Shown piece after piece: positions 2,914 to 17,194 of a stretch of DNA of 64,000 bases. The translations under genes and the position numbers were made by a program. This DNA is from a virus. Its lineage: Duplodnaviria > Caudoviricetes. Under the pieces are notes generated by a model. It did no database searches. It was not told the DNA's origin and was given only the letters and a program-made list of their open reading frames with translations. Each line of letters begins with the position of its first letter. Position 1 is the stretch's first letter. Location of the stretch: IMG/VR virus record IMGVR_UViG_2974723664_000001, positions 1 to 64,000 of that record; one strand, 5' to 3'.

Positions 2914-3197
2914 TGGATACCTTTCTGACTGTACTGGCGGTAACGGCTGTGGTTGTTGGTGTACTCCTGTCTTATTGGGACGACATTATGATCACCATCT
3001 TCCAATGGTCCTTCGGCAAGCTGACTGAACAGCAAGCCTGGGACATGCACTACTTCCACGAAGAGAAGGCTCACTTCTTCAATCGCTTGGGAGTGTCCGA
3101 CCAGTACGAGATCCACAAGTCTCGTTCCATCGCTCACTATCACTACGCTGTGCGTATGCATGAGCGCAACCTTCGCAAATCCAAGCACAAGGACTGA
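2913..3197 (+). CDS. hypothetical membrane protein
   Basis: N-terminal hydrophobic helix; coupled start. Confidence 0.65.
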   Translation: MDTFLTVLAVTAVVVGVLLSYWDDIMITIFQWSFGKLTEQQAWDMHYFHEEKAHFFNRLGVSDQYEIHKSRSIAHYHYAVRMHERNLRKSKHKD

Positions 3198-3199
3198 TC

Positions 3200-3385
3200 A
3201 TGCTCAATCACAATCCGATCCTGTTCGTCCTCGGGTACATCCTGGTGGCGATCATCGTCATCGCAGTGGAACCACTGCGTGACTTCGTACTCCTGGCTGC
3301 TCAGGTGCTGGCTGCCGTGGCATTCCTTGCCTTCATCGCAGCCATCACCCTGGAGGCCATTCAAAGCAGGAAGCGCCATGAATGA
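3200..3385 (+). CDS. small membrane protein
   Basis: two hydrophobic segments. Confidence 0.65.
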   Translation: MLNHNPILFVLGYILVAIIVIAVEPLRDFVLLAAQVLAAVAFLAFIAAITLEAIQSRKRHE

Positions 3386-4324: not shown

Positions 4325-4716
4325 TCTTCGTCTTCGGAAGCAATACCGCAGGTATCCACGGTGGTGGTGCTGCACACCACGCCTACAAGAAGGAAGGTGC
4401 TCGCTGGGGCATGGGCTACGGCCACTATGGAAACAGCTTCGCCATTCCCACCAAGGGCCACACTGGAACTGTGGAGACGCGCATAGGGAACACACTTCCC
4501 TTGAAGGAAATCGAAGATTTTGTTCGTGGTTTCCTCGCATACGCTCGGGCCAATCCGGTCATGCTGTTCCAGGTCACCCGCATCGGCTGCGGATTGGCAG
4601 GGTTGAATGACTATGACATGGCCATGATGTTCCAACATGCACCAGCCAACTGCTTCTTCGACACCTACTGGAAGCCCTACCTGGGTGAGCATGCCTCGTA
4701 CTGGGGCACTTTCTAA
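4321..4716 (+). CDS. macrodomain-like phage protein
   Basis: IFVFGSNTAGIHGGGAA, FAIPTK and FQVTRIGCGLAG motifs. Confidence 0.75.
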   Translation: MIFVFGSNTAGIHGGGAAHHAYKKEGARWGMGYGHYGNSFAIPTKGHTGTVETRIGNTLPLKEIEDFVRGFLAYARANPVMLFQVTRIGCGLAGLNDYDMAMMFQHAPANCFFDTYWKPYLGEHASYWGTF

Positions 4717-4738
4717 ATCATCACAAGGACTATTCAAC

Positions 4739-5575
4739 ATGAACCAAGACGCCCAAGCAGTACAGATGCAGGGTCATGAACTCCAGAAACAACTGGAACG
4801 TGAATACAGCAACAATCAACTCATGCGTCGTATGCGCAAAGAGTTCACTGACTGCAAGTCTCCAGACTTCGTGGCTTACTTCGAGCACAAGCAGTGGGAT
4901 GTGGACTTCTGCATCGATGCCATGGTGCAGATTGCACTGCATAAGCGTGCTGATCTGCCCACCATGATCGGCACTCTGCGTCACCATTGTGCTACGGCAC
5001 AGGATGTTGCCAATGGTCTGCTGAATCTGGCCATTGCTGACATCATGGACTGGGTGCCTGAACTGGAAATCTTCGTGGTCAAGTTCGGCATCAGTGAAGA
5101 CGTACAGCACGAGATCGACAAGTATCAATATCCTCTGCCCATGGTAGTGGAACCCAAGCATCTGAAGAACAATCTCAGTTCGGGTTATCTCACCACCAAC
5201 GGCAGCTTGATCCTGAAGAAGAACCATACGGATGATGATGTGTGTCTCGACCACATCAATCGAATGAACCGTGTGCGTCTCTCCATCAATCCTGACACTG
5301 TTCTCATGGTGCAGAACAAGTGGAAAGGGCTGGACAAGATCAAGGATGGTGAGACTCATGAAGACTTCGAGAAGCGCAAGCGTGCTTTCGAGAAGTATCA
5401 ACGCACTGCTTATGAGGTCATGGACATTCTCTATGCCGCTGGCAATGAGTTCTTCCTGACTCACAAGTACGACAAGCGTGGGCGTACCTATGCTCAGGGC
5501 TACCACGTTAACTATCAGGGCACTCCTTGGAACAAAGCTGTCCTGGAATTTGCAGAGAAGGAGTTCATTCAATGA
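4739..5575 (+). CDS. RNA polymerase II subunit 1 (N4 gp15-like)
   Basis: THKYDKRGRTYAQGYHVNYQG (T7-like DxRGR motif). Confidence 0.9.
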   Translation: MNQDAQAVQMQGHELQKQLEREYSNNQLMRRMRKEFTDCKSPDFVAYFEHKQWDVDFCIDAMVQIALHKRADLPTMIGTLRHHCATAQDVANGLLNLAIADIMDWVPELEIFVVKFGISEDVQHEIDKYQYPLPMVVEPKHLKNNLSSGYLTTNGSLILKKNHTDDDVCLDHINRMNRVRLSINPDTVLMVQNKWKGLDKIKDGETHEDFEKRKRAFEKYQRTAYEVMDILYAAGNEFFLTHKYDKRGRTYAQGYHVNYQGTPWNKAVLEFAEKEFIQ

Positions 5576-5859
5576 GCATGCCGAAAGCTGTAATCCACTT
5601 GCACCAGTTCACCTTCCACGTCGATACGACCAATGGTGAGGTAACGCAATTTCTGGCCAAGCCGAAAGGTGCAAGCGTGGTATTGCACAAGTCCCATCCC
5701 ATGATTCCGAAGGTGTATGCAGCTTACGCCCGTAACAAGGGCATGAGCGGGACTGTGTTCAACGGCCATCCCTACGTGAAACTGTGGGGACGTGTCGTCA
5801 ATCTCAACAACGGGAACCAAGTCCAGGACAGGAGCATCCTGTCCATGTTCGAGGAATGA
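5572..5859 (+). CDS. hypothetical protein between RNAP subunits
   Basis: ATGA overlap; AAGGAG RBS. Confidence 0.65.
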   Translation: MSMPKAVIHLHQFTFHVDTTNGEVTQFLAKPKGASVVLHKSHPMIPKVYAAYARNKGMSGTVFNGHPYVKLWGRVVNLNNGNQVQDRSILSMFEE

Positions 5860-6008
5860 TTATGGACATCGCAGATGCTTTCCAAATAGTGATCGATCTT
5901 GCCAAGCAGAACATGGCACCAACAGACATGTCGGAGGAACGAGCACGTCAGCAAGAAGCAATCAACATGATCGAAGACATCGCCGTGAATGAATACGGTG
6001 ACGAGTAA
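5856..6008 (+). CDS. hypothetical protein
   Basis: GAGG RBS; coupled start. Confidence 0.55.
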   Translation: MIMDIADAFQIVIDLAKQNMAPTDMSEERARQQEAINMIEDIAVNEYGDE

Positions 6009-6041
6009 TCAACCATTCTCAAGACGCTAGGAGCAGAGAAC

Positions 6042-7256
6042 ATGCAACTTTTTACCGCAATCGAAAACCTGAAGATCGATATCAGCAACAACTTCGGCAA
6101 TGACAAGATGGACTGGCTGGAGCGTATCCAGTGGTTCGACGCCAATGAAGGCAATCTGGAGAACCTGATTGCCGAGGCTGATGAACCTGCCCTGTTCCAT
6201 GCTGGTGTCATGGCCTACCGGGCTGTGCAACGCAAGGAAGCCATCGGCTATCCGGTGGCCTTCGACGCTACCAACTCGGGCATGCAGATTCTGGCTTGCT
6301 TGACTGGCTGCCGCAAGACTGCTGAACTGTGCAACGTGGTGGACGTGGGTCGTCGTGTTGACGGCTACATGGAAATCTATGGTGGCATGATGAGTGCCAC
6401 TGGTGGCCAAGCCAAGATCGACCGCAAGGAAGTGAAGTCGGCGGTCATGACTGCCTTCTACGGCTCGGAAGCCATCCCCAAGCAGGTGTTCGGTGAAGGT
6501 GCTCTGCTGCGTGTGTTCGAGCAGACCATGGGGACCATGGCTCCTGGTGCATGGCAGTTGAACCAGTTCTTCCTGGACATCTGGAACCCGGAAGCCACTG
6601 CCTACCACTGGGTTCTGCCGGACAACTTCCACGTCCACACCAAGGTCATGGCCAAGCAGGGCGAGATCGTTCACTTCCTGGACAAGCCCTACGAGACCTT
6701 CCGTGAAGTGCAGGGAACCAAGGAGAAGGGGCGTAGCCTGTCTGCCAACAGTGTGCATAGCATTGACGGCATGGTGGTCCGTGAAATGGTACGTCGCTGC
6801 GACTACAGCGATGCCAAGGTCAAGCTGCTGCTCTCGCATATCACCGCCATCAAGATGGGGGCTGTGGTCTGCGGGCAGGCTCCCTGCACGGACAAGGACT
6901 CCCAACTGGTGGAGACCCTCTGGGGTCACTACAAGAGCACAGGCTTCCTGTCGGCACGCATTATCGACTGCCTGCACCTGCACAACCTGCATCTGGTTGA
7001 CATGGATGTGGTGCTGGAACTGTTGGCAAGCCTGCCGCCGAAGCCCTTCAAGGTGCTCACGGTGCATGACTGCTTCCGGTGCCTGCCCACCTATGTCAAT
7101 GACCTGCGTAAGCAGTACAACCTGATCCTGGCCAAGATCGCACGCAGCGACCTGCTGACTTCGATCCTGTCTCAGATCATGGGGCGTGTCTTCCGTGTGG
7201 AGAAGATGGAAGACCTGCACGACGATATCCTTCAGACCAACTACGCTTTGTCCTAA
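6042..7256 (+). CDS. RNA polymerase II subunit 2 (N4 gp16-like)
   Basis: motif A FDATNSGMQI, motif B RKEVKSAVMTAFYG, motif C VHDCF. Confidence 0.93.
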   Translation: MQLFTAIENLKIDISNNFGNDKMDWLERIQWFDANEGNLENLIAEADEPALFHAGVMAYRAVQRKEAIGYPVAFDATNSGMQILACLTGCRKTAELCNVVDVGRRVDGYMEIYGGMMSATGGQAKIDRKEVKSAVMTAFYGSEAIPKQVFGEGALLRVFEQTMGTMAPGAWQLNQFFLDIWNPEATAYHWVLPDNFHVHTKVMAKQGEIVHFLDKPYETFREVQGTKEKGRSLSANSVHSIDGMVVREMVRRCDYSDAKVKLLLSHITAIKMGAVVCGQAPCTDKDSQLVETLWGHYKSTGFLSARIIDCLHLHNLHLVDMDVVLELLASLPPKPFKVLTVHDCFRCLPTYVNDLRKQYNLILAKIARSDLLTSILSQIMGRVFRVEKMEDLHDDILQTNYALS

Positions 7257-7365
7257 AATACGGCCAATCCTCTGTCAAGAGGGTTGGCCAACTTTTTTAG
7301 AACACGGATAGATACTGAGGATAAAATAGGTATTCTTATCCACACCTTTCTTTGAGGTACTTGTC

Positions 7366-7950
7366 ATGCCCCTGATGCAAATTTCCATCAATGTCGCCAA
7401 CCCGCTCAAACGGTTGGTTAAAGTCGATCCGGATGGTACGGCCCTGGAATCGGGATACACCAAAATCGGCACTTTCGATCACCCGTCCACGGAAGATGAC
7501 ATCGATCCGCTCGGCCCTGCCGAAAATCACGTCATCTACCACCACGTCCAGGAAGCCCTGTACCACGTCAAGGCCGGTGTGACGCCTTCGATCGCTGGCT
7601 TCTGGCCCGACAACATCACGGACATGCAGTCGGTGTCCATCAGCTATACGGCTCCGCCTGAAGAAGTGGTCATTGACTTCATCTCTCTGGACAGCCCCAC
7701 GGTTTCCGTAGCTGTCGGTGCGACGGTGCAGAATCTTATCTTCTACAATCCGGACACGGCCACCAACAAGACCCTCACGGTGTCGTCCAGCGATCCCACC
7801 AAGGCCACGGCTGTCTACGACGGTCCTCTGGGCGGTGATTCCCTGGCAACCGGTGTGACGGTCACGGGTGTGGCTGCCGGTACGGCCACCATCACGGTGA
7901 CCACGGCAAACGGCAAGACGGCCACTTTCGACGTGACGGTTACGGCGTAA
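7366..7950 (+). CDS. Ig-like (Big_2) capsid decoration protein, gp17-like
   Basis: C-terminal SSSDPTKAT...VTGVAAGTATITVTTANG; position after RNAP2. Confidence 0.8.
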   Translation: MPLMQISINVANPLKRLVKVDPDGTALESGYTKIGTFDHPSTEDDIDPLGPAENHVIYHHVQEALYHVKAGVTPSIAGFWPDNITDMQSVSISYTAPPEEVVIDFISLDSPTVSVAVGATVQNLIFYNPDTATNKTLTVSSSDPTKATAVYDGPLGGDSLATGVTVTGVAAGTATITVTTANGKTATFDVTVTA

Positions 7951-7999
7951 GTTGTCAGAGGTTTTGTGGGGTGAGATCACCCTGTAGAAACTCTTCACG

Positions 8000-8023
8000 G
8001 CCCCTCTTCGGAGGGGCTTTTTT
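8000..8023 (+). terminator. rho-independent terminator
   Basis: GCCCCTC-TTCG-GAGGGGC-T6. Confidence 0.9.
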
Positions 8024-8036
8024 GCATCTGTTCACC

Positions 8037-8249
8037 ATGCAACCCAACAAGAAAACCGACAAGCACATTCAACGATACATCACTGAAGTGACCAGCAAGC
8101 CTGGTCAATGGGTGTATGTGTCGAGAGCCAAGCACTCCAAGAACGCTCGTGATTACATCGTGGATACCGTGAAGAGCATCATCGAAATGATGGGCGTCTC
8201 GGTTGAAGTCGATGGCTATCACAAGTGCCGTCTCCGCATCAAACCCTGA
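8037..8249 (+). CDS. hypothetical protein
   Basis: ORF with phage-like codon usage. Confidence 0.6.
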   Translation: MQPNKKTDKHIQRYITEVTSKPGQWVYVSRAKHSKNARDYIVDTVKSIIEMMGVSVEVDGYHKCRLRIKP

Positions 8250-8263
8250 ACCAAGGAACCAAG

Positions 8264-9037
8264 ATGAAAAACGTCTCCCTGAACCTGTCGTACAACAAGC
8301 AACGCCTGTATCGCAACATCCTGGTTGACCTCGGTCTGGTCTCCAAGGATGCGAAGTATGGTGACTACCTGCAAGTGGTGTTCACCGAATCCCAGTTCGT
8401 CGCCTTCGTGGCTGCGGCCCTGGCCAACACGGAAGCGGTGTTCAGTCTCCGCGCCATGGGCTTCCGTGCGTTCGAGGTGGAAGAGAATCCCCAACAGGAA
8501 CTCCCCCTGAACCAAGAAGAAGAACCTTCGGCCAAACGTGGAGAAGACGCCATCATGGCCATGCTGGAAACCCTCTTCGGCGTCCCCGTCATCAAGATCG
8601 ATGGCAGCAATCTGCCCCCGATCAACGAGGAATGCGGCTGCCCGGCCTGCACCCTGGGTGTGACCCTGGAAGAAGCTCTGCGTGGCAACCTGCGTGCTAC
8701 GCAGATGTCCCAGAACCAACCCAGCAAGCGTGACACTGGTGCATCGCCTGCCTTCGAGGCCAAGTACGGCCAAGAGCAGATCGATGACCTGCACGAAAAA
8801 GCTCTGGCCTGGAACAAGAAAGTCGATGACGCCACCAAACTGGCCTTCGAGCAGTTCTACGTCATGCGTCAAGGTGATGTGTCCGTCTGGCAAGCGTGGC
8901 GCTTTCTCGAAAAGAACGAAGGCCGTGTCATGTGGCCGGAATTCATCCCCAACGCCGCCTACAAGGACATGTCCCTGCGTAACGTCTGGGCCATGGCTCA
9001 GAACATGCGTGGCAGCCTCCTGGAGTACATGCGGTAA
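8264..9037 (+). CDS. hypothetical protein with CGCPAC motif
   Basis: AAGGA RBS; 257 aa. Confidence 0.75.
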   Translation: MKNVSLNLSYNKQRLYRNILVDLGLVSKDAKYGDYLQVVFTESQFVAFVAAALANTEAVFSLRAMGFRAFEVEENPQQELPLNQEEEPSAKRGEDAIMAMLETLFGVPVIKIDGSNLPPINEECGCPACTLGVTLEEALRGNLRATQMSQNQPSKRDTGASPAFEAKYGQEQIDDLHEKALAWNKKVDDATKLAFEQFYVMRQGDVSVWQAWRFLEKNEGRVMWPEFIPNAAYKDMSLRNVWAMAQNMRGSLLEYMR

Positions 9038-9375
9038 TGGAAAAGAACCGGCGTAACGCCATCATCGAAAAGATCGAAGCCCGCTGTGACATCGTAGACA
9101 AGGGCTTTGTGATTGGGATGAAACCGAGTCCCTGTCACTTGTGGCAAGGGCCGACCTCGGGTAACGGTCGAGGTGGCGGTTACGGCCGGATGAGTCTGAA
9201 CGGCCACACTGTGGCCGTCCACCTCGTAGTCTTCACCCACTACTTCGGGTACATCCCTGGCAACAAACAAGTCGATCACCTGTGCAACCAACGACTCTGC
9301 TGCAATCCACAGCACTTGGAGTTGGTGACACACCTGACCAACCAGCGGCGTCGTGCTGCACGGAGTAAATCATGA
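9037..9375 (+). CDS. HNH endonuclease (N4 gp22-like)
   Basis: CHLWQG, VDHLCNQRLCCNPQHLELVT motifs. Confidence 0.9.
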   Translation: MEKNRRNAIIEKIEARCDIVDKGFVIGMKPSPCHLWQGPTSGNGRGGGYGRMSLNGHTVAVHLVVFTHYFGYIPGNKQVDHLCNQRLCCNPQHLELVTHLTNQRRRAARSKS

Positions 9376-9638
9376 AGCAACCCGATCAATGGGTTTTGGA
9401 CTACATCCATCAGGAACTGTGCCGCTTGATCCAAACGGCACAGCAAGCTGGTGTTGTGTGTCGTGTTGACTTGGTTCCCACCAAACCTTTGCGTATGGGC
9501 GGATACACCATGGTGGCTGATGTTCGCCCCGCTCGTCAGATGGAAGAACCCATTACCGAGTACGAGCGACTGGAGAACCAACACATGGGTAATCCTGAAC
9601 TCAAAAACGGCATCTACAGCGAGGAAAGCCATGACTGA
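9372..9638 (+). CDS. hypothetical protein
   Basis: GGAG RBS; ATGA overlap. Confidence 0.65.
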   Translation: MKQPDQWVLDYIHQELCRLIQTAQQAGVVCRVDLVPTKPLRMGGYTMVADVRPARQMEEPITEYERLENQHMGNPELKNGIYSEESHD

Positions 9639-10524
9639 GAACAACGCCGCCCAGCCCGTGCTGACGGATGACGAAGTCCGCGCCATCATAACCGACGCGC
9701 ACCAATCGCACGGGGCATTCAAGACCGGCTACGGCCTCTCGCTTGGCCGCGCCATCGAGCAAGCCGTGCTGTCCAAGCTGCGCGCGGAGGGCGTGCAGGC
9801 GGGCGATGAGCGGGCGGCCCTGGCCTGGTACGCGGAGCAGGTCGCTGGCTGCCGAAAGTTTGGCGCAGACGGCGATGCCGCGCGCCAAGCGCTGGACAAA
9901 GACGGTGGCAGGCGTGCCCGCGCCGCCCTGGCGAGCACCCCTGTAGCCGCAATCCCGCCCGAAAAGCCGCTGCCTGATCTGATGATGGCCACCTACCACG
10001 AGGCGGTAGGCTGGAACGCGTGCCGCGCCGCGATGCTGCGGTCTATGCCCCTGGCAAGCGCCCCGGTAGCTGATGACTGGACGCCCACCCCTGCCAACAT
10101 CAACGCTTTACCTGAACGGGTGCGTGCCTACATTCACGATCTGGTGGCGAACGCCGACCCGTCCGGGATGGTGGCGGAAAACACCCTGCTCCGGGACCAG
10201 ACCAAGCAACTTGATGCCATGATCGGGCGTCTGAAACGTGAGCTTGCAAGCGCCCCTGTAGCCGGGGAGGTGCAGGAGCGTATCGAGCAGATGGCCGTGA
10301 ATCGGTATCGGCCGGTCCCTGATGGCAAGTTCAGCTACAAGGTCGTCGCGGGCGATGGAAGTCGGTCGCTTTACACCGGAACGAAGGATTCTTGCTTGCG
10401 GGTTGCTGCAAAGCTGACGGAAGCATTTCTTGATGGCGCGTTTGTTGCGTCAGATGCCGCGCCCCAGGCCAGCGAGGCGGTGCGCCCCTGCACATGCCAA
10501 CCTGATTGGGGTGCAAAGAAATAG
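9631..10524 (+). CDS. high-GC modular hypothetical protein with AS[AT]PVA linkers
   Basis: GAGG RBS; visibly higher GC than flanks; three repeated linkers. Confidence 0.75.
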   Translation: MTENNAAQPVLTDDEVRAIITDAHQSHGAFKTGYGLSLGRAIEQAVLSKLRAEGVQAGDERAALAWYAEQVAGCRKFGADGDAARQALDKDGGRRARAALASTPVAAIPPEKPLPDLMMATYHEAVGWNACRAAMLRSMPLASAPVADDWTPTPANINALPERVRAYIHDLVANADPSGMVAENTLLRDQTKQLDAMIGRLKRELASAPVAGEVQERIEQMAVNRYRPVPDGKFSYKVVAGDGSRSLYTGTKDSCLRVAAKLTEAFLDGAFVASDAAPQASEAVRPCTCQPDWGAKK

Positions 10525-10526
10525 CC

Positions 10527-10832
10527 ATGGACTGCCCTATTCCTCTGATGGATGACCCACTCAGTGTGTATTGGGACCAGCCCTCACACAACCAACTCTT
10601 CTTCACTGAAGAGGCTGTCATTGTCCCACGTCATGCCTTCAATATGTTGAAGGAGTATTCCTCTTCTAACCCCAGTGGTGCCTATCACGGGAAGATGTGG
10701 AAGTGCTATTTCGATGGTCAATGGGAGTTGTGTTGGTTTGGTATTCATACTACCGATCCCAAGCTGGTAACCATCAACCGTATGTCCCTCATCGTTGACG
10801 ATGTTGGGGTCACCACACTCATGGATGGATAG
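10527..10832 (+). CDS. hypothetical protein
   Basis: WDQP and YSSSNPSGAYHGKMWK motifs seen in small phage proteins. Confidence 0.65.
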   Translation: MDCPIPLMDDPLSVYWDQPSHNQLFFTEEAVIVPRHAFNMLKEYSSSNPSGAYHGKMWKCYFDGQWELCWFGIHTTDPKLVTINRMSLIVDDVGVTTLMDG

Positions 10833-15528: not shown

Positions 15529-15690
15529 ATGTTCTTCGGTTTGTTCAAGCTGTTCCGCTTTGCCTTCCTACGGCTGGTTGCCCCGGTCACGGAAGCTCTG
15601 CGTACCGAAATGCATATGGTTCGACATGCCGCCTTCCATATTCATCGCCTCATGCTGGTCAGACGACCGGAACAAGATGATTATGGTTAG
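15529..15690 (+). CDS. 53-aa Phe-rich peptide (not in ORF track)
   Basis: AAGGAG 7 nt before ATG 15529; MFFGLFKLFRFAFLRLV...DDYG; followed by a hairpin. Confidence 0.5.
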   Translation: MFFGLFKLFRFAFLRLVAPVTEALRTEMHMVRHAAFHIHRLMLVRRPEQDDYG

Positions 15691-15726
15691 GTACGTTCAA
15701 ACGTGAGAAACCATACATAGACGCCG

Positions 15727-15760
15727 GAAGCCCAGGGCAAATCCCTGGGCTTCGTGCTTT
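15727..15760 (+). terminator. strong hairpin, possible terminator or processing site
   Basis: GAAGCCCAGGG-CAAAT-CCCTGGGCTTC, weak U tail. Confidence 0.55.
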
Positions 15761-16365
15761 CAGACTCTTGAGTCTGCGCTTTAGTGATACGTAATTCTTG
15801 TCAAGGACTGCACCGTAAGGAGCACTGCCGCGACATCGAGTAGGGTCGGTCACGCTAGTAGAGTGCAGATCAAAGGGCGGCAGACAGGGTAGCTCCCTAT
15901 GCCAATCTGGATGGGTTCGATTCCCAGAAGTTCCGTGGTCGGAAACATAAATCAGCCCCCTTGTTGTTAGGGCCAGTACGCGAAAGCCTCTGCTGGGAAA
16001 CACTTCAGTAACCTGAAGGAGAACTTTGAGTAAATCAGCCGGCAGAAATAATGCCGACTGTTGGGTGTTCAAGTCACCCCGCTACGGGAAACCATAGCGT
16101 AGGCAAATCTGGAAAAGCACTCAAAAGCATCTGTGTAGGGCGTAGGACCGTTAGTGTTGACTGTACGGTGCGGAAGCAGAAAAAATCAACCCGAGGCCGC
16201 AAGGCCCGGTCTGCGCATTGAAAGGATGCACGTATTGGAACCCTGGCTCTATGGGGGGCTTCTACGTTCTCGCTGACAGTGTGCAGACCGAGCCTTGCTC
16301 CGGAGTTACGAATCTCTGTTGAAAATCGTAGAGGGGCGCTTGGCTTAATCCTTGCCCCCTCGCAA
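15761..16365 (+). ncRNA. putative large structured ncRNA(s)
   Basis: no credible ORF; dense hairpins with GNRA loops; T-arm motifs at 15912-15926 and 16063-16079; long-range stems 16025-16031/16119-16125 and 16207-16220/16277-16290. Confidence 0.6.
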
Positions 16366-16371
16366 ATTATC

Positions 16372-16457
16372 CCCAAGGTAGCTCAGTTGGTTTAGAGCAC
16401 ATCAAGCACCGAAAGGTGATGGTGCGGTCAGTGGTTCGAGTCCACTCCGAGGGGCCA
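16372..16457 (+). tRNA. tRNA-like element lacking a canonical anticodon loop
   Basis: D arm GCTC-AGTTGGTTTA-GAGC, T arm AGTGG-TTCGAGT-CCACT, encoded CCA; anticodon arm capped by CACC-GAAA-GGTG; two acceptor mismatches. Confidence 0.7.
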
Positions 16458-16520
16458 ACACAGTTTTGATCCAGAAGCGACGGCTTCTGGTTCGGACAGG
16501 GCTGTACGCGACAGCTCCTG

Positions 16521-16618
16521 GGGCGTAGTGATGGAAGGGTAGACATAGAGTCTGTTCAAAGACTCAGAGCGTAGCCGCGAGGTGCTCGTGCGGGTTCAAC
16601 CCCCGCCTACAATGCCCG
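16521..16618 (+). tRNA. atypical class II tRNA-like element (Leu/Sec-like, 8-nt loop)
   Basis: D arm ATG-GAAGGGTAGA-CAT; GAGTC-TGTTCAAA-GACTC; long variable arm; T arm GCGGG-TTCAACC-CCCGC; bulged acceptor stem; no CCA. Confidence 0.65.
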
Positions 16619-16628
16619 AATCAATCAA

Positions 16629-16732
16629 TGTGGTCACATACAGTGTATCGGTCTGATCAGCCGTGTGTTCTGTAGCCGGGGAGACCGGTGGCTTTACAAG
16701 CAACGGAGGTGAAAACCCTTCAGGCCACACCA
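16629..16732 (+). ncRNA. CCA-ended structured RNA
   Basis: TGTGGTC pairs with GGCCACA, then CCA; internal hairpins include GGAGG-TGAAAAC-CCTTC. Confidence 0.45.
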
Positions 16733-16825
16733 AACAGAATTCGCTCGAAGCTTCGGCTTGAGAGGTAGACCACTGAGAAATCCAGGTGGGCAGTCCGGTG
16801 GAAACCCGGCAAGTTCAACAACAAG

Positions 16826-16855
16826 AAGCCAGAGCAGCCTTTGCTCTGGCTTTTT
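16826..16855 (+). terminator. rho-independent terminator closing the RNA locus
   Basis: GCCAGAGCA-loop-TGCTCTGGC-T5. Confidence 0.85.
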
Positions 16856-16870
16856 CTATTTCACATCATC

Positions 16871-17194
16871 ATGTACCAAGAACTGAACCAAGAAGCCCTC
16901 GATACCATCCTGCAAGAACATGCGGAGGTGGTCATTCGCTTTACCGCTGAATGGTGTGGTCCGTGTAAGCAATTCGCACCGGCCTTCCATGAAGTGGCAG
17001 AAGCCCACATCAACAAGCCCACGATCTTCGGCATCATCGACGCCGACAAGGAGCGTGATCTCGCAGTGAAGTATGGTGTCCGTGGCTTGCCCTCGGTGCT
17101 GTTCTTCGTCCATGGTCAAGTAGTTGGCCGTGTGTCCGGTGCCATGACTGCCGAGAAGTTCGCTGAAGTCGTGAACAAGCAATTCAACCGTTAA
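16871..17194 (+). CDS. trxA: thioredoxin
   Basis: FTAEWCGPCK active site; GVRGLPS. Confidence 0.92.
   Translation: MYQELNQEALDTILQEHAEVVIRFTAEWCGPCKQFAPAFHEVAEAHINKPTIFGIIDADKERDLAVKYGVRGLPSVLFFVHGQVVGRVSGAMTAEKFAEVVNKQFNR

What the first reader, a model, noticed from the sequence alone, without database searches (positions are those of the whole stretch)
15755..16855. ~1.1 kb structured non-coding RNA locus built from tRNA-like modules
Seen: the only long gap without a credible ORF in a tightly packed genome. It is bounded by a strong hairpin and a terminator and filled with stems, GNRA/UUCG loops, four TTCRA T-arm motifs (15912, 16063, ~16430, 16590) and three acceptor-stem-like units, two ending in CCA. 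Known: phages carry tRNA clusters and large ncRNAs (GOLLD, ROOL) near them. Inference: a polycistronic precursor processed into non-canonical tRNA mimics plus a larger ncRNA, possibly decoys for host anticodon nucleases or translation modulators. None of the units is a normal tRNA.
Basis: partly seen in the sequence, partly recalled or inferred. Interest (0 to 1): 0.88.

Follow-up and report, generated by a model that had tools for sequence, protein, structure and literature searches.

The report
Phage RNA island of tRNA mimics
An Achromobacter N4-like phage carries a 1.1-kb gene-free stretch that encodes several conserved tRNA-shaped RNAs that cannot decode codons, one of them built like the tRNA-like part of bacterial Y RNAs, which points to an undescribed kind of phage RNA mimicry.

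Summary
Window 15691-16870 is an ORF-free gap in an Achromobacter N4-like phage (Dongdastvirus). It lies between a 53-aa gene and thioredoxin. The gap holds a modular array of structured RNAs on the + strand.

They are the only four on the + strand of the 64-kb window.

Three modules are tRNA-shaped and supported by compensatory changes across three phage genera:
- M2 (16026-16124) is a circularly permuted tRNA-like domain with a capped acceptor stem, the topology of the bacterial Y RNA YrlA.
- TL1 (16372-16457) has a tRNA body and an encoded CCA. It has conserved A.A and A.G acceptor mismatches, and a GAAA-capped rod replaces the anticodon loop.
- TL2 (16521-16617) has a long variable arm, a bulged 8-bp acceptor stem and a 6-nt "anticodon" loop.

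None of the three can decode. Two relatives carry an unannotated two-piece tmRNA in the same locus; this phage does not.

Not shown: transcription, processing and function. The best reading is a processed array of tRNA mimics that engage host tRNA-handling proteins. A decoy for anticodon nucleases is unlikely, because the anticodon arms are the least conserved part. No Ro/TROVE protein is encoded. I rate it a new variant of a known kind.

The parts
15727..15753 (+). Boundary hairpin, 11 bp with a 5-nt loop, followed by GTGCTTTC. It is probably the terminator of the upstream genes.
   Evidence: Read. It is kept in all 9 genomes. Pourcelvirus shows a change on both sides of the stem (GG/CC to AG/CU), seen in the alignment. 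The terminator scan did not list it.
15773..15869 (+). P1, a long-range helix (15773-15783 pairs with 15859-15869). It encloses a variable hairpin region and marks the 5' part of the RNA.
   Evidence: It appears in the MFE fold. Of the 5 inner pairs, 4 are invariant and 1 is compensatory (C-G to U-A) across 9 genomes. I read the outer half as covarying between genera from the strands printed; this was not counted by a tool.
15879..15944 (+). M1, a T-loop domain with three parts: a hairpin at 15879-15903; a T-arm UGGG/UUCGAUU/CCCA at 15912-15926; and a hairpin with an invariant UGGU loop at 15931-15944.
   Evidence: T stem: 2 of 4 pairs compensatory. UGGU hairpin: 4 of 5 pairs compensatory. Both counted on 9 genomes. 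The fold energy of the module alone is no better than shuffles (z = +0.10). No closing helix is conserved, so the overall architecture is open.
16026..16124 (+). M2, a circularly permuted, acceptor-capped tRNA-like domain. In order: closing helix 16026-16030 with 16120-16124; AAAU; variable-arm hairpin 16036-16060; T-arm 16063-16079; capped 'acceptor' hairpin 16080-16099 with a GAAA loop; UA; D-arm 16102-16119 with GG in its loop.
   Evidence: The MFE fold equals this structure, z = -3.06. A model built from the 4 Dongdastvirus sequences alone finds the element at the predicted place in the 2 Jwalphavirus genomes (51-52 bits) and the 3 Pourcelvirus genomes (28.5-31.7 bits, filters off). On 9 sequences, 96.6% of cells pair and 16 of 29 pairs are compensatory. 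0 of 500 shuffles reach this; slid controls pair 24-56%. An independent count agrees.
16125..16300 (+). M3, a structured region with a 10-bp long-range helix (16208-16217 pairs with 16280-16289).
   Evidence: The helix is in the MFE fold. Its sequence is shared with JWAlpha and JWDelta, with one mismatch (read). Pourcelvirus has different sequence here. No covariation was counted.
16301..16361 (+). M4, with two parts. First, hairpin 16301-16318, whose loop bases 16307-16311 can pair with 16326-16330 (a candidate H-type pseudoknot). Second, hairpin 16331-16361.
   Evidence: z = -2.32. It differs from Pourcelvirus at only 4 of 62 sites, while the flanking genes differ by 27-36%. The pseudoknot is my reading of the sequence and was not tested. 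Axy04 has a different hairpin sequence at the same place.
16372..16457 (+). TL1, a tRNA-like RNA without an anticodon. Its parts: acceptor 16372-16378 with 16447-16453, carrying A.A and A.G mismatches at tRNA positions 4:69 and 5:68; a canonical D-arm; a canonical T-arm 16430-16446; the anticodon arm replaced by a 5-bp + 4-bp rod capped by GAAA (16400-16424); G73 and an encoded CCA (16454-16457).
   Evidence: Rfam tRNA scores 37.2 bits with a 15-nt insert at the anticodon loop. ARAGORN does not call it. It is present in 8 of 9 genomes and absent in phiAxp-3. T stem: 3 of 5 pairs compensatory. The two mismatches are unpaired in 10 of 10 rows; only the 5 Achromobacter-phage rows are free of selection by my search pattern. 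Relatives annotate the same element as tRNA-Cys, tRNA-Gln or tRNA-Phe.
16471..16515 (+). Two spacer hairpins between TL1 and TL2: 16471-16490 (8 bp) and 16501-16515.
   Evidence: First hairpin: 5 of 8 pairs compensatory in 9 genomes. The second is present in 6 of 9 genomes and absent in the 3 Pourcelvirus genomes.
16521..16617 (+). TL2, a class-II tRNA-like RNA. Its parts: an 8-bp acceptor interrupted by a 3-nt AAU bulge in the 3' strand; a 3-bp D stem; a 6-bp 'anticodon' stem with a 6-nt loop; a long variable arm; a canonical T-arm. No CCA is encoded.
   Evidence: ARAGORN calls it 'tRNA-???'. Rfam tRNA-Sec scores 18.7 bits. It is present in 9 of 9 genomes. 97.1% of cells pair and 10 of 27 pairs are compensatory. 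0 of 500 shuffles reach this; slid controls pair 30-42%. 6 of 8 relatives carry longer inserts, about 27-39 nt, in the anticodon loop.
16629..16732 (+). M8, a candidate branched module closed by a 7-bp stem (16629-16635 with 16723-16729) and followed by CCA. It is accessory, shared only with Axy04 and in part with Axy24.
   Evidence: MFE fold, z = -0.69, which is not better than shuffles. There are no diverged homologues, so no covariation can be counted. It is weakly supported. It sits at the site where Axy11 carries its tmRNA.
16734..16825 (+). M9, a conserved 3' module of three hairpins just upstream of the terminator.
   Evidence: z = -2.52 with the terminator included. It differs from Pourcelvirus at 9 of 121 sites. 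I read one compensatory change in each of two hairpins (A-U to G-C; C-G to G-C) from the strands printed. The helix registers set in that script were off by one, so its own counts for M9 are not valid.
16826..16857 (+). Intrinsic-terminator-like hairpin plus a U-tract. It ends the locus 14 nt before the thioredoxin ATG.
   Evidence: Read and present in the MFE fold. The scanner listed the hairpin on the - strand only. It is conserved in the Dongdastvirus and Pourcelvirus loci.

Best explanation
The gap is an RNA gene island on the + strand. It ends at its own terminator and encodes an array of tRNA-derived RNAs that cannot decode, together with other structured RNA.

Shown:
- Three modules (M2, TL1, TL2) keep the tRNA elbow (T-arm plus D-arm) and an acceptor-type helix through compensatory changes.
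- The position of the anticodon arm is free to vary. In TL1 it is a capped rod, in TL2 a 6-nt loop, and in M2 it is the helix that ties the domain into the transcript.
- M2 has the same order of parts as the tRNA-like domain of the bacterial Y RNA YrlA.

Inferred:
- The transcript is cut by the host tRNA-processing enzymes: RNase P at the 5' side of TL1 and TL2, and 3' trimming at the encoded CCA of TL1.
- This would release small stable tRNA mimics and a roughly 600-nt 5' RNA (P1 to M4) whose 3' end is made by that cut, as with MALAT1 and mascRNA (recalled).
- The products act by molecular mimicry. They would occupy or divert host proteins that read the tRNA body and acceptor end rather than the anticodon. 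Candidates are processing and modification enzymes, the CCA-adding enzyme, Ro/PNPase-type RNA surveillance, and defence toxins that attack tRNA acceptor ends.

Module content differs between close relatives, which fits accessory, host-interaction genes.
For: Identity and setting.
- The locus is syntenic in 8 of 8 fetched Achromobacter N4-like relatives from three genera.
- It is absent at the same place in 3 of 3 N4-like phages of other genera that I examined.

Structure.
- M2: 16 of 29 pairs compensatory, 96.6% paired.
- TL2: 10 of 27 compensatory, 97.1% paired.
- TL1 T stem: 3 of 5 compensatory.
- M1 hairpins, spacer hairpin and P1.
- In every case 0 of 500 shuffles reach the observed covariation score, and slid controls pair 24-56%.
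- G.U pairs occur in the + sense, which points to RNA of the + strand rather than DNA hairpins.
- All four + strand T-arm motifs of the window lie here.
- Both halves fold better than shuffles (z = -3.0 and -3.2).

Selection.
- Between the window and phiAxp-3, the 5' domain differs at 5.2% of sites (31 of 601).
- Third codon positions differ by 10.2%, 16.7% and 22.5% in three flanking genes, and by 3.7% in the 53-aa ORF.
- There is no conserved reading frame.

Y-RNA link.
- The M2 model also hits two elements in an unrelated metagenomic contig, L211 (28.3 and 21.6 bits).
- Rfam YrlA aligns to the second of these at 38.5 bits and shows the order T-arm, capped acceptor, UA, D-arm.
- The YrlA paper describes that topology. 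[quoted passage not shown]

Precedent for a phage tRNA-like decoy. Mycobacteriophage DS6A carries a tmRNA reduced to its tRNA-like domain. PMC4131195 says a similar molecule strongly inhibits tmRNA; PMC11915505 says the DS6A form inhibits the endogenous tmRNA in E. coli (passages read in both).

A related island elsewhere. L211 holds 7 T-arm motifs on one strand in 12 kb. They include a CCA-ending tRNA-like whose anticodon arm is lengthened and capped by GCAA.
Against: - No transcription, processing or binding data exist. Contigs from RNA libraries cover pieces of the locus but also the flanking genes, and may come from DNA.
- No promoter was identified. The one + strand promoter-like site lies inside the locus, and the site count equals shuffles.
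- The phage encodes no Ro/TROVE protein, and I found no RNA-handling enzyme among the 20 neighbouring and early proteins scanned.
- TL1 is missing in phiAxp-3, M8 is found only in close relatives, and the tmRNA is in only 2 of 8 relatives, so no single module is essential.
- M1 and M8 do not fold better than shuffles.
- Only three genera supply the covariation. The shuffle control ignores relatedness, and the M2 alignment was fitted to the structure.
- The conserved acceptor mismatches of TL1 and the acceptor bulge of TL2 are not explained, and they might impair RNase P or CCA-enzyme recognition.
Confidence: 0.5

Rival explanations
1. Purely cis-acting punctuation. The tRNA-like units exist only as RNase P and 3'-processing signals and stabilisers. 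They define the ends of the neighbouring RNAs (the 5' large RNA, the tmRNA in relatives, the thioredoxin mRNA), and the excised mimics have no function of their own.
For: The acceptor, T and D parts are the ones conserved, and the anticodon arms vary freely; I recall that RNase P reads the acceptor and T parts. In the relatives that have a two-piece tmRNA, that RNA lies in the same array and needs tRNA-type processing (PMC11915505 introduction passage). The MALAT1/mascRNA precedent is recalled.
Against: M2 and M1 are capped or embedded, so they offer no RNase P substrate end (in 5 of 9 genomes the M2 'acceptor' is only 3-4 bp), yet they are conserved just as strongly. TL1 keeps an encoded CCA and two invariant mismatches, which a mere cleavage signal does not need.
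Confidence: 0.15
2. Y-RNA-like ribonucleoprotein. M2 (and perhaps M1) recruit a host Ro60/Rsr protein and an exoribonuclease such as PNPase, to remodel RNA decay during infection.
For: M2 has the YrlA order of parts, and its model cross-detects a YrlA-like element. Phages with Ro and Y RNAs are known (PMC4201824 abstract and passages; PMC12135203 seen in a search listing only).
Against: - The phage has no TROVE gene.
- Rfam YrlA gives no match in the genome, even at E up to 10.
- No GNCGAAN0-1G motif is present (0 of 3 representative loci).
- The closing helix of M2 is only 5-7 bp, with no extended Ro-type stem.
- The L222 locus (7.4 kb of its contig), which carries a TL1-like element, shows no TROVE among the 6 ORFs scanned.
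- Whether Achromobacter has Rsr could not be tested.
Confidence: 0.12
3. One giant RNA. The whole 1.1 kb, or its 5' 600 nt, works as a single large folded RNA that displays several tRNA elbows, comparable in scale to GOLLD and ROOL, which also sit near tRNAs in phages (recalled).
For: A long-range helix P1 and a 10-bp helix in M3 are predicted. M1 and M2 are embedded domains, not free ends. There are conserved single-stranded linkers (AUCAAAGG, AAAUCAG).
Against: Modules are gained and lost independently between close relatives, which is unlike a single integrated fold. No Rfam match to GOLLD or ROOL. TL1 and TL2 have open acceptor ends that a cell's RNase P would be expected to cut.
Confidence: 0.08
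4. Decaying remnants of a former tRNA/tmRNA gene cluster, with no present function.
For: TL1 scores as tRNA in Rfam. The TL2 D-arm resembles tRNA-Leu (recalled). Relatives retain an intact tmRNA. Module loss does occur (phiAxp-3 lacks TL1).
Against: Helices are maintained by compensatory changes across genera. The locus evolves more slowly than third codon positions in 3 of 4 flanking genes. The anticodon arms have become stable capped helices rather than random decay. The same mismatch-type acceptor recurs in unrelated metagenomic contigs.
Confidence: 0.07
5. Small protein-coding genes, as annotated in JWAlpha (three hypothetical ORFs inside the region).
For: The GenBank record of JWAlpha lists ORFs there. 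The JWAlpha paper reports that tRNAscan-SE found no tRNAs (PMC3915230 passage).
Against: No frame is conserved between genera. Indels of 1 and 2 nt separate close relatives. The RNA structures account for the conservation.
Confidence: 0.02

Closest known systems
YrlA, the tRNA-like bacterial Y RNA (Rfam RF02553; Chen et al. 2014, PMC4201824)
   Same: M2 has the same order of parts: a closing helix in place of the anticodon stem, T-arm, loop-capped acceptor helix, UA, and a D-arm with GG. The M2 model cross-detects an element that Rfam aligns to YrlA.
   Different: No Rfam YrlA match. No Ro/TROVE gene in the phage. No GNCGAAN0-1G motif. M2 has an extra variable-arm hairpin, a 3-bp D stem and a short closing helix, and it is embedded in a 1.1-kb multi-module locus rather than lying beside rsr.
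Phage tRNA gene clusters
   Same: Tandem tRNA-shaped genes in a phage, on the same strand as the neighbouring genes. TL1 passes the Rfam tRNA gathering score.
   Different: No unit has a 7-nt anticodon loop. TL1 has tandem acceptor mismatches and a capped rod. TL2 has a bulged 8-bp acceptor. ARAGORN assigns no amino acid, and database annotations of the same element disagree (Cys, Gln, Phe).
Two-piece (permuted) tmRNA, and the TLD-only tmRNA of mycobacteriophage DS6A
   Same: Relatives Axy11 and JWDelta carry a permuted tmRNA (97.6 and 95.8 bits) in this same locus. It has degradation tags ANDDYIRVAA and ANDDYIRLAA. DS6A shows that a phage can carry a non-coding tRNA-like derivative that inhibits a host system (PMC4131195 and PMC11915505 passages).
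   Different: This phage has no tmRNA. M2 has a real D-arm and a tetraloop-capped acceptor, so it cannot be charged. No tag reading frame was found.
MALAT1-mascRNA / MEN-beta tRNA-like 3'-end processing
   Same: A tRNA-like unit with a non-conserved anticodon arm directly follows a long structured RNA, and would give that RNA its 3' end through RNase P.
   Different: That system is eukaryotic. Here there are several units, an encoded CCA and a phage setting, and processing has not been shown.

Membership tests
tRNA (RF00005), tested on TL1 | Covariance-model score at or above the gathering score | tested here: met
   37.2 bits against a gathering score of 29 in the sensitive scan of 15600-17000. 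It was not reported in the whole-window scans because of the speed filters.
tRNA (RF00005), tested on TL1 | A 7-nt anticodon loop on a 5-bp stem that can present an anticodon | tested here: not met
   15 nt sit where the loop should be. They form a 4-bp extension capped by GAAA. ARAGORN makes no call. The arm differs in length and sequence in relatives.
tRNA (RF00005), tested on TL1 | A fully paired 7-bp acceptor stem | tested here: not met
   A.A at 4:69 and A.G (A.A in Axy22) at 5:68 in 5 of 5 distinct Achromobacter-phage versions.
tRNA / tRNA-Sec, tested on TL2 | Model score at gathering, a regular acceptor stem and a 7-nt anticodon loop | tested here: not met
   tRNA-Sec scores 18.7 bits against 47. 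There is a 3-nt bulge in the acceptor 3' strand in all 9 genomes (4 nt in Axy24). The loop is 6 nt here and about 33-45 nt in 6 of 8 relatives.
YrlA (RF02553), tested on M2 | Order of parts: stem, T-arm, capped acceptor, UA, D-arm, stem | tested here: met
   compared with the Rfam consensus printed.
YrlA (RF02553), tested on M2 | Covariance-model score at or above gathering (69 bits) | tested here: not met
   No match at E up to 10.
YrlA (RF02553), tested on M2 | Encoded next to a Ro60/Rsr (TROVE) gene and bound by it | tested here: not met
   No TROVE match in the 74-kb phage genome at E up to 1. Binding cannot be tested with these tools, and the host genome could not be reached.
YrlA (RF02553), tested on M2 | Conserved GNCGAAN0-1G motif (named in PMC4201824) | tested here: not met
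   0 occurrences in the loci of the window, Axy10 and JWAlpha.
Permuted tmRNA (RF04321) | Model score at gathering, a G3.U70 acceptor with ACCA, and a tag reading frame | tested here: not met
   0 matches in the window and in the whole genome. The features are met in relatives Axy11 and JWDelta.
GOLLD / ROOL and other large Rfam ncRNAs | Covariance-model match | tested here: not met
   No match.

The most novel reading that the evidence does not exclude
Achromobacter N4-like phages, and unrelated uncultured phages such as the one behind contig L211, carry a previously unrecognised class of modular 'tRNA-mimic islands'. These are arrays of anticodon-less tRNAs, Ro-independent Y-RNA-like permuted tRNA domains and, optionally, a two-piece tmRNA. 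The host tRNA machinery would process them into decoys. The decoys would neutralise host factors that act on the tRNA body or CCA end, including anti-phage toxins that modify or cut acceptor ends. The hypervariable arms and the swapping of modules would record an arms race.
Probability: 0.22. Interest if true: 0.85.

Novelty: new variant of a known kind. Interest (0 to 1): 0.72.

Why it matters
Phage tRNA genes are usually read as codon-usage helpers or as replacements for tRNAs cut by host defences. Here the tRNA shape is kept under selection while the ability to decode has been removed, so the shape itself must be what matters.

A Y-RNA-type tRNA domain in a phage that has no Ro protein also loosens the assumed tie between YrlA-like RNAs and Ro.

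If the RNAs act as decoys or recruiters, they would be an RNA-based form of host takeover or counter-defence, and a source of compact, stable tRNA-mimic scaffolds.

In practical terms, the GenBank records of these therapy-candidate phages mis-annotate the locus. They list it as tRNA-Cys, tRNA-Gln or tRNA-Phe, or as hypothetical ORFs, and they miss a two-piece tmRNA in Axy11 and JWDelta.

Tried and rejected
- Known RNA families. Nothing reaches threshold in the window except tRNA for TL1 in the sensitive local scan. The weak hits (an HCV stem-loop at 16.7 bits, a trypanosome snoRNA at 15.4 bits) are chance.

- Homologues by thioredoxin. 80 loci were returned. Apart from Axy10 (66% identity) the best matches were 40% identity or less. 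I did not open any of them, so they gave no further homologues.

- Pattern scans.
  - GTAGGCAA..AAAAGC gave more than 119 hits. I did not inspect them and took them for chance matches of too loose a pattern; that scan was wasted.
  - The M1 pattern found only JWAlpha, and the M2 pattern found only Axy10 and JWAlpha.
  - The TL2 5' 17-mer gave 11 stretches. 2 are known relatives and 9 are chance hits with no tRNA-like continuation.

- Expression. Contigs of 4 runs were laid on the locus. Three RNA-library runs hold pieces of the locus (for example 16045-16214, 16367-16439, 16575-16772, 15838-15992), but also pieces of the flanking genes. Some pieces come from relatives with other module content. 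Contigs cannot show transcription, strand or ends.

- Ro/TROVE search. No match in the phage or in the IMG/VR record of L010. The metagenome records are not held, so they were not searched.

- Host Achromobacter genomes could not be reached.

- Neighbouring and early genes. 20 proteins were scanned (Pfam and PHROGs). They are RNAP II subunits, MoxR-like AAA, VWA/metallopeptidase, dCTP deaminase, thioredoxin, ThyX and unknowns. None is an RNA-processing enzyme.

- MAFFT alignments of M2 (A1, A4) were out of register with the structure and were not used for counts. I replaced them with a model-based alignment.

- The closing helix for M1 suggested by the MFE fold is not conserved in the other genera, so I dropped it. 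The P-a and alt-2 pairings around M2 were also dropped, for lack of positional conservation (reasoned).

- My M9 helix counts used wrong registers and are not valid.

- Literature. 'N4-like' with 'tRNA-like' gave 0 papers. 'Achromobacter phage' with 'tmRNA' gave 19 papers; the 15 I saw in the listing do not describe this locus. The supplements of PMC4201824, which list the phage YrlA RNAs, are closed and may hold related phages.


Full report
WHAT THE WINDOW IS

The window is an N4-like podovirus of Achromobacter (Schitoviridae, Rothmandenesvirinae). The query region matches 14 phage records, all from Achromobacter. The best are Dongdastvirus Axy04, Axy24 and phiAxp-3, at 95-99% identity. A 3428-aa ORF on the - strand fits the N4-type virion RNA polymerase (this assignment is recalled, not tested). 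The genome record is 74,096 bp with terminal repeats.

The finding lies between a 53-aa gene (15529-15690, PHROG 27287) and thioredoxin (16871-17194). Upstream are a MoxR-like AAA gene, a VWA/metallopeptidase gene and dCTP deaminase.

THE OBSERVATION

The gap of 1180 nt has no credible ORF. Peptide matches between genera occur in all six frames over the same nucleotide patches, and indels of 1-2 nt separate close relatives.

A scan for a 5-bp stem, a UUYRANN loop and a G-C closing pair finds only these four on the + strand of the whole 64 kb. Random sequence gives 1.7 (sd 1.2) per 64 kb on both strands.

Both halves of the region fold better than dinucleotide shuffles: z = -3.03 and -3.16, with 0 of 100 shuffles as good. 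Single modules vary. M2 gives -3.06, M4 -2.32 and M9 -2.52, but M1 gives +0.10 and M8 -0.69.

The boundary hairpin (15727-15753) and the terminator-like hairpin (16826-16852, then UUUUU) are in the sequence. The consensus scanner gave them no statistical support.

COMPARATIVE ANATOMY

I fetched the syntenic locus from 8 relatives in three genera:
- Dongdastvirus: Axy04, Axy24, phiAxp-3.
- Pourcelvirus: Axy22, Axy10, Axy11.
- Jwalphavirus: JWAlpha, JWDelta.

All have an ORF-poor gap of 1.0-2.2 kb at this place. Three N4-like phages of other genera (G7C, Pokken, Kpn16-P2) have ordinary protein genes there.

The gap is a mosaic.
- Shared by all 9 genomes: P1, M1, M2, a spacer hairpin and TL2.
- TL1 is in 8 of 9; phiAxp-3 lacks it.
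- M4 and M9 are shared by Dongdastvirus and Pourcelvirus at 93-94% identity, although the flanking genes differ by 27-36%.
- Absent from this window: a 230-266-nt module in front of TL1, a roughly 190-nt insert behind TL1, long inserts in the TL2 anticodon loop, an HNH gene, and a two-piece tmRNA.

M2 (16026-16124)

Reading the three genus versions side by side gives one architecture:
- a 5-7-bp closing helix;
- AAAU;
- a hairpin that starts CAG and ends CUG;
- two unpaired bases;
- a 5-bp T stem with a 7-nt T-loop;
- directly after it, a hairpin capped by GAAA or UUCG (8, 4 or 3 bp);
- UA;
- a 3-bp stem around a 10-12-nt loop (it carries GG in Dongdastvirus and Jwalphavirus, not in Pourcelvirus);
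- the closing strand.

This is a tRNA opened in the anticodon loop and closed at the acceptor end.

The MFE fold of the window sequence gives exactly this structure. A covariance model built only from the four near-identical Dongdastvirus sequences finds the element at the predicted coordinates in Jwalphavirus (51-52 bits). With filters off it also finds it in Pourcelvirus (28.5-31.7 bits), and it finds nothing else in the window.

On the resulting alignment:
- 96.6% of cells pair;
- 16 of 29 pairs change on both sides;
- all 5 closing-helix pairs covary;
- 0 of 500 shuffles reach the observed covariation;
- slid controls pair 24-56%.

The alignment was fitted to the structure, so it leans toward it. 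My independent coordinate-based count gave 12 of 22 compensatory pairs.

LINK TO Y RNAs

The same model hits two elements in an unrelated metagenomic contig, L211 (28.3 and 21.6 bits), and one in L221. Rfam aligns YrlA to the second L211 element at 38.5 bits, below its gathering score of 69. The printed consensus shows the same order: stem, T-arm, capped acceptor, UA, D-arm, stem.

The YrlA paper describes this mimicry. [quoted passage not shown]

M2 itself is not a YrlA member by test:
- no Rfam match at E up to 10;
- no TROVE gene in the phage;
- no GNCGAAN0-1G motif.

So it works like, or at least looks like, the YrlA tRNA domain. Family membership is not shown.

TL1 (16372-16457)

Rfam tRNA scores it at 37.2 bits, but with 15 nt in place of the anticodon loop. 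The arm reads CAUCA-AG-CACC-GAAA-GGUG-A-UGGUG, a rod capped by a GNRA tetraloop.

In relatives the arm is a different helix with a 9-nt or a 14-nt loop. The acceptor, D-arm, T-arm and CCA stay the same. This explains why GenBank calls the same element tRNA-Cys, tRNA-Gln or tRNA-Phe, and why the JWAlpha authors found no tRNA with tRNAscan-SE (PMC3915230 passage).

The T stem has 3 of 5 compensatory pairs. Positions 4:69 and 5:68 are purine-purine mismatches in every version. The five metagenomic rows in that alignment were picked by a pattern covering both strands, so only the five Achromobacter-phage rows are independent evidence for the mismatches.

The 19-mer search returned 18 new loci beyond the two known relatives L009 and L011. 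I sorted them by reading the sequences printed:
- 6 are open mismatch-type elements (L010, L219, L220, L212, L222, L223);
- 2 are capped, permuted elements (L211, L221);
- 8 look like ordinary tRNAs with a complementary or nearly complementary 3' strand;
- 2 are unrelated.

L222 places the TL1-like element beside a permuted tmRNA and five tRNAs in a phage that has a 5-hmdU DNA kinase.

TL2 (16521-16617)

The nine versions align well. On this alignment 97.1% of cells pair and 10 of 27 pairs are compensatory. These lie in the D stem, the 'anticodon' stem, the variable arm and the T stem. 0 of 500 shuffles reach this, and slid controls pair 30-42%.

The acceptor is 4 + 4 bp with an A/U-rich 3-4-nt bulge in the 3' strand in all nine. 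No CCA is encoded.

The loop on the anticodon stem is 6 nt here and in JWAlpha, and about 33-45 nt in the other six relatives. The D-arm sequence recalls tRNA-Leu; that is my recollection and was not tested.

OTHER PARTS

- M1 has a T-arm (2 of 4 pairs compensatory) and a hairpin with an invariant UGGU loop (4 of 5 compensatory). It has no conserved closing helix.
- P1 joins 15773-15783 to 15859-15869.
- The spacer hairpin 16471-16490 has 5 of 8 compensatory pairs.
- M4 may form a pseudoknot; this is my reading only.
- M8 is a branched fold ending in a 7-bp stem plus CCA. It has no energetic or comparative support.

STRAND AND SELECTION

G.U pairs occur in the + sense in several helices, and the T-loop consensus is strand-specific. 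Both point to a + strand RNA.

Between the window and phiAxp-3, the 5' domain differs at 5.2% of sites. Third codon positions differ at 10.2% in dCTP deaminase, 16.7% in thioredoxin and 22.5% in the next gene, but only 3.7% in the 53-aa ORF. This fits purifying selection, although recombination blurs such comparisons. For example, Axy04 is 1.1% different in the RNA but 38% different at third positions of dCTP deaminase.

HOW IT MOST LIKELY WORKS

Shown: a conserved + strand array of tRNA-shaped, non-decoding RNAs.

Inferred from what is known of RNase P and tRNA 3' processing (established knowledge, not tested here): TL1 and TL2 are cut out of the transcript, which also sets the 3' end of the roughly 600-nt 5' RNA.

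Inferred further: the products act by mimicry of the tRNA body. The parts that are conserved are those read by enzymes that ignore the anticodon.

A cis-only processing role, a Ro-type RNP, a single giant RNA and a decaying gene cluster remain as rivals. The last is the least likely, given the compensatory changes.

NOVELTY

The searches 'N4-like' with 'tRNA-like' (0 papers), 'Achromobacter phage' with 'tmRNA', and the JWAlpha paper show no description of this locus.

tRNA mimics, YrlA and phage tmRNAs are known kinds. What is new is the combination: anticodon-less tRNAs with conserved acceptor defects, a Ro-less YrlA-type domain and optional modules, all in one island. L211 suggests that similar islands exist in unrelated phages. 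I rate it a new variant of a known kind.

LIMITS

- There are no expression data. The RNA-library contigs are not decisive.
- Only three genera supply covariation.
- The shuffle controls ignore phylogeny.

Noticed in passing
L006 (Axy11) 2397-2686 and L008 (JWDelta) 2974-3358: Both loci hold a two-piece (permuted) tmRNA, scoring 97.6 and 95.8 bits against RF04321, in the same intergenic locus. It has a G3.U70 acceptor with ACCA and tags ANDDYIRVAA and ANDDYIRLAA. The GenBank records do not annotate it; one lists a hypothetical - strand ORF there and the other a 'terminator'. It is absent from the window's genome.
   Followed up: partly
L008 (JWDelta) about 2277-2880: An HNH endonuclease gene (2423-2845) sits directly behind TL2. 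Behind the HNH gene is a second copy of the T-arm 3' half and acceptor 3' strand of TL2. This looks like a homing or replacement event that used the 3' end of TL2 as its target.
   Followed up: no
L005/L006 (Axy10, Axy11), intergenic positions about 917-1085 (locus about 1897-2065): A roughly 190-nt insert follows TL1. It is flanked by a near-identical direct repeat (CTTTATATGAA / CTTTTATATGAA), like a small mobile insertion.
   Followed up: no
L001 1634-1899, with equivalents in L002 and L004-L006 and a shorter form in L007/L008: A further module of 230-266 nt begins GTCTACAGACCCC in front of TL1. It is absent from the window and from phiAxp-3. It was not characterised.
   Followed up: no
L211 (metagenome contig), - strand, about 4450-10800: About 6 kb has no ORF of 130 aa or more. 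The 12-kb locus holds 7 T-arm motifs on one strand, all between 4761 and 10274. Among them are two YrlA-topology elements, a CCA-ending tRNA-like whose anticodon arm is lengthened and capped by GCAA, and a repeated linker motif (TTTTGG..CCTACAGCAG) that resembles the AGTTTTGATCCA and CTACAGACC linkers of the Achromobacter phages. This may be a related RNA island in an unrelated phage.
   Followed up: partly
L222 (metagenome contig) 5226-7015, - strand: Five tRNAs, a permuted tmRNA (101.3 bits) and a TL1-like element with the mismatch-type acceptor lie in a row, next to a helicase and a 5-hmdU DNA kinase gene.
   Followed up: partly
window 16301-16361 and 16734-16857, compared with L004-L006: M4 and M9 are 93-94% identical between Dongdastvirus and Pourcelvirus, although the flanking genes differ by 27-36%. 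Either constraint is strong or these modules were exchanged recently.
   Followed up: partly
GenBank records MK962626, MK962641, MK962639, MK962629, MK962630: The same element (TL1) is annotated as tRNA-Cys-GCA, tRNA-Gln-CTG or tRNA-Phe-GAA in different phages. None of these has a regular anticodon loop.
   Followed up: yes
L010 318-583: A group I intron-like match (42.5 bits, below the gathering score of 50) lies 5 kb upstream of a TL1-like element, in a 33-kb IMG/VR contig.
   Followed up: no
M2 T-loop and D-loop, window 16068-16074 and 16105-16116, compared with L004-L006: In Pourcelvirus the T-loop reads UUUGAAU instead of UUCAAGU (tRNA position 56 C to U), and the D-loop loses its GG. This may be covariation of the tertiary G19-C56 contact.
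   Followed up: no
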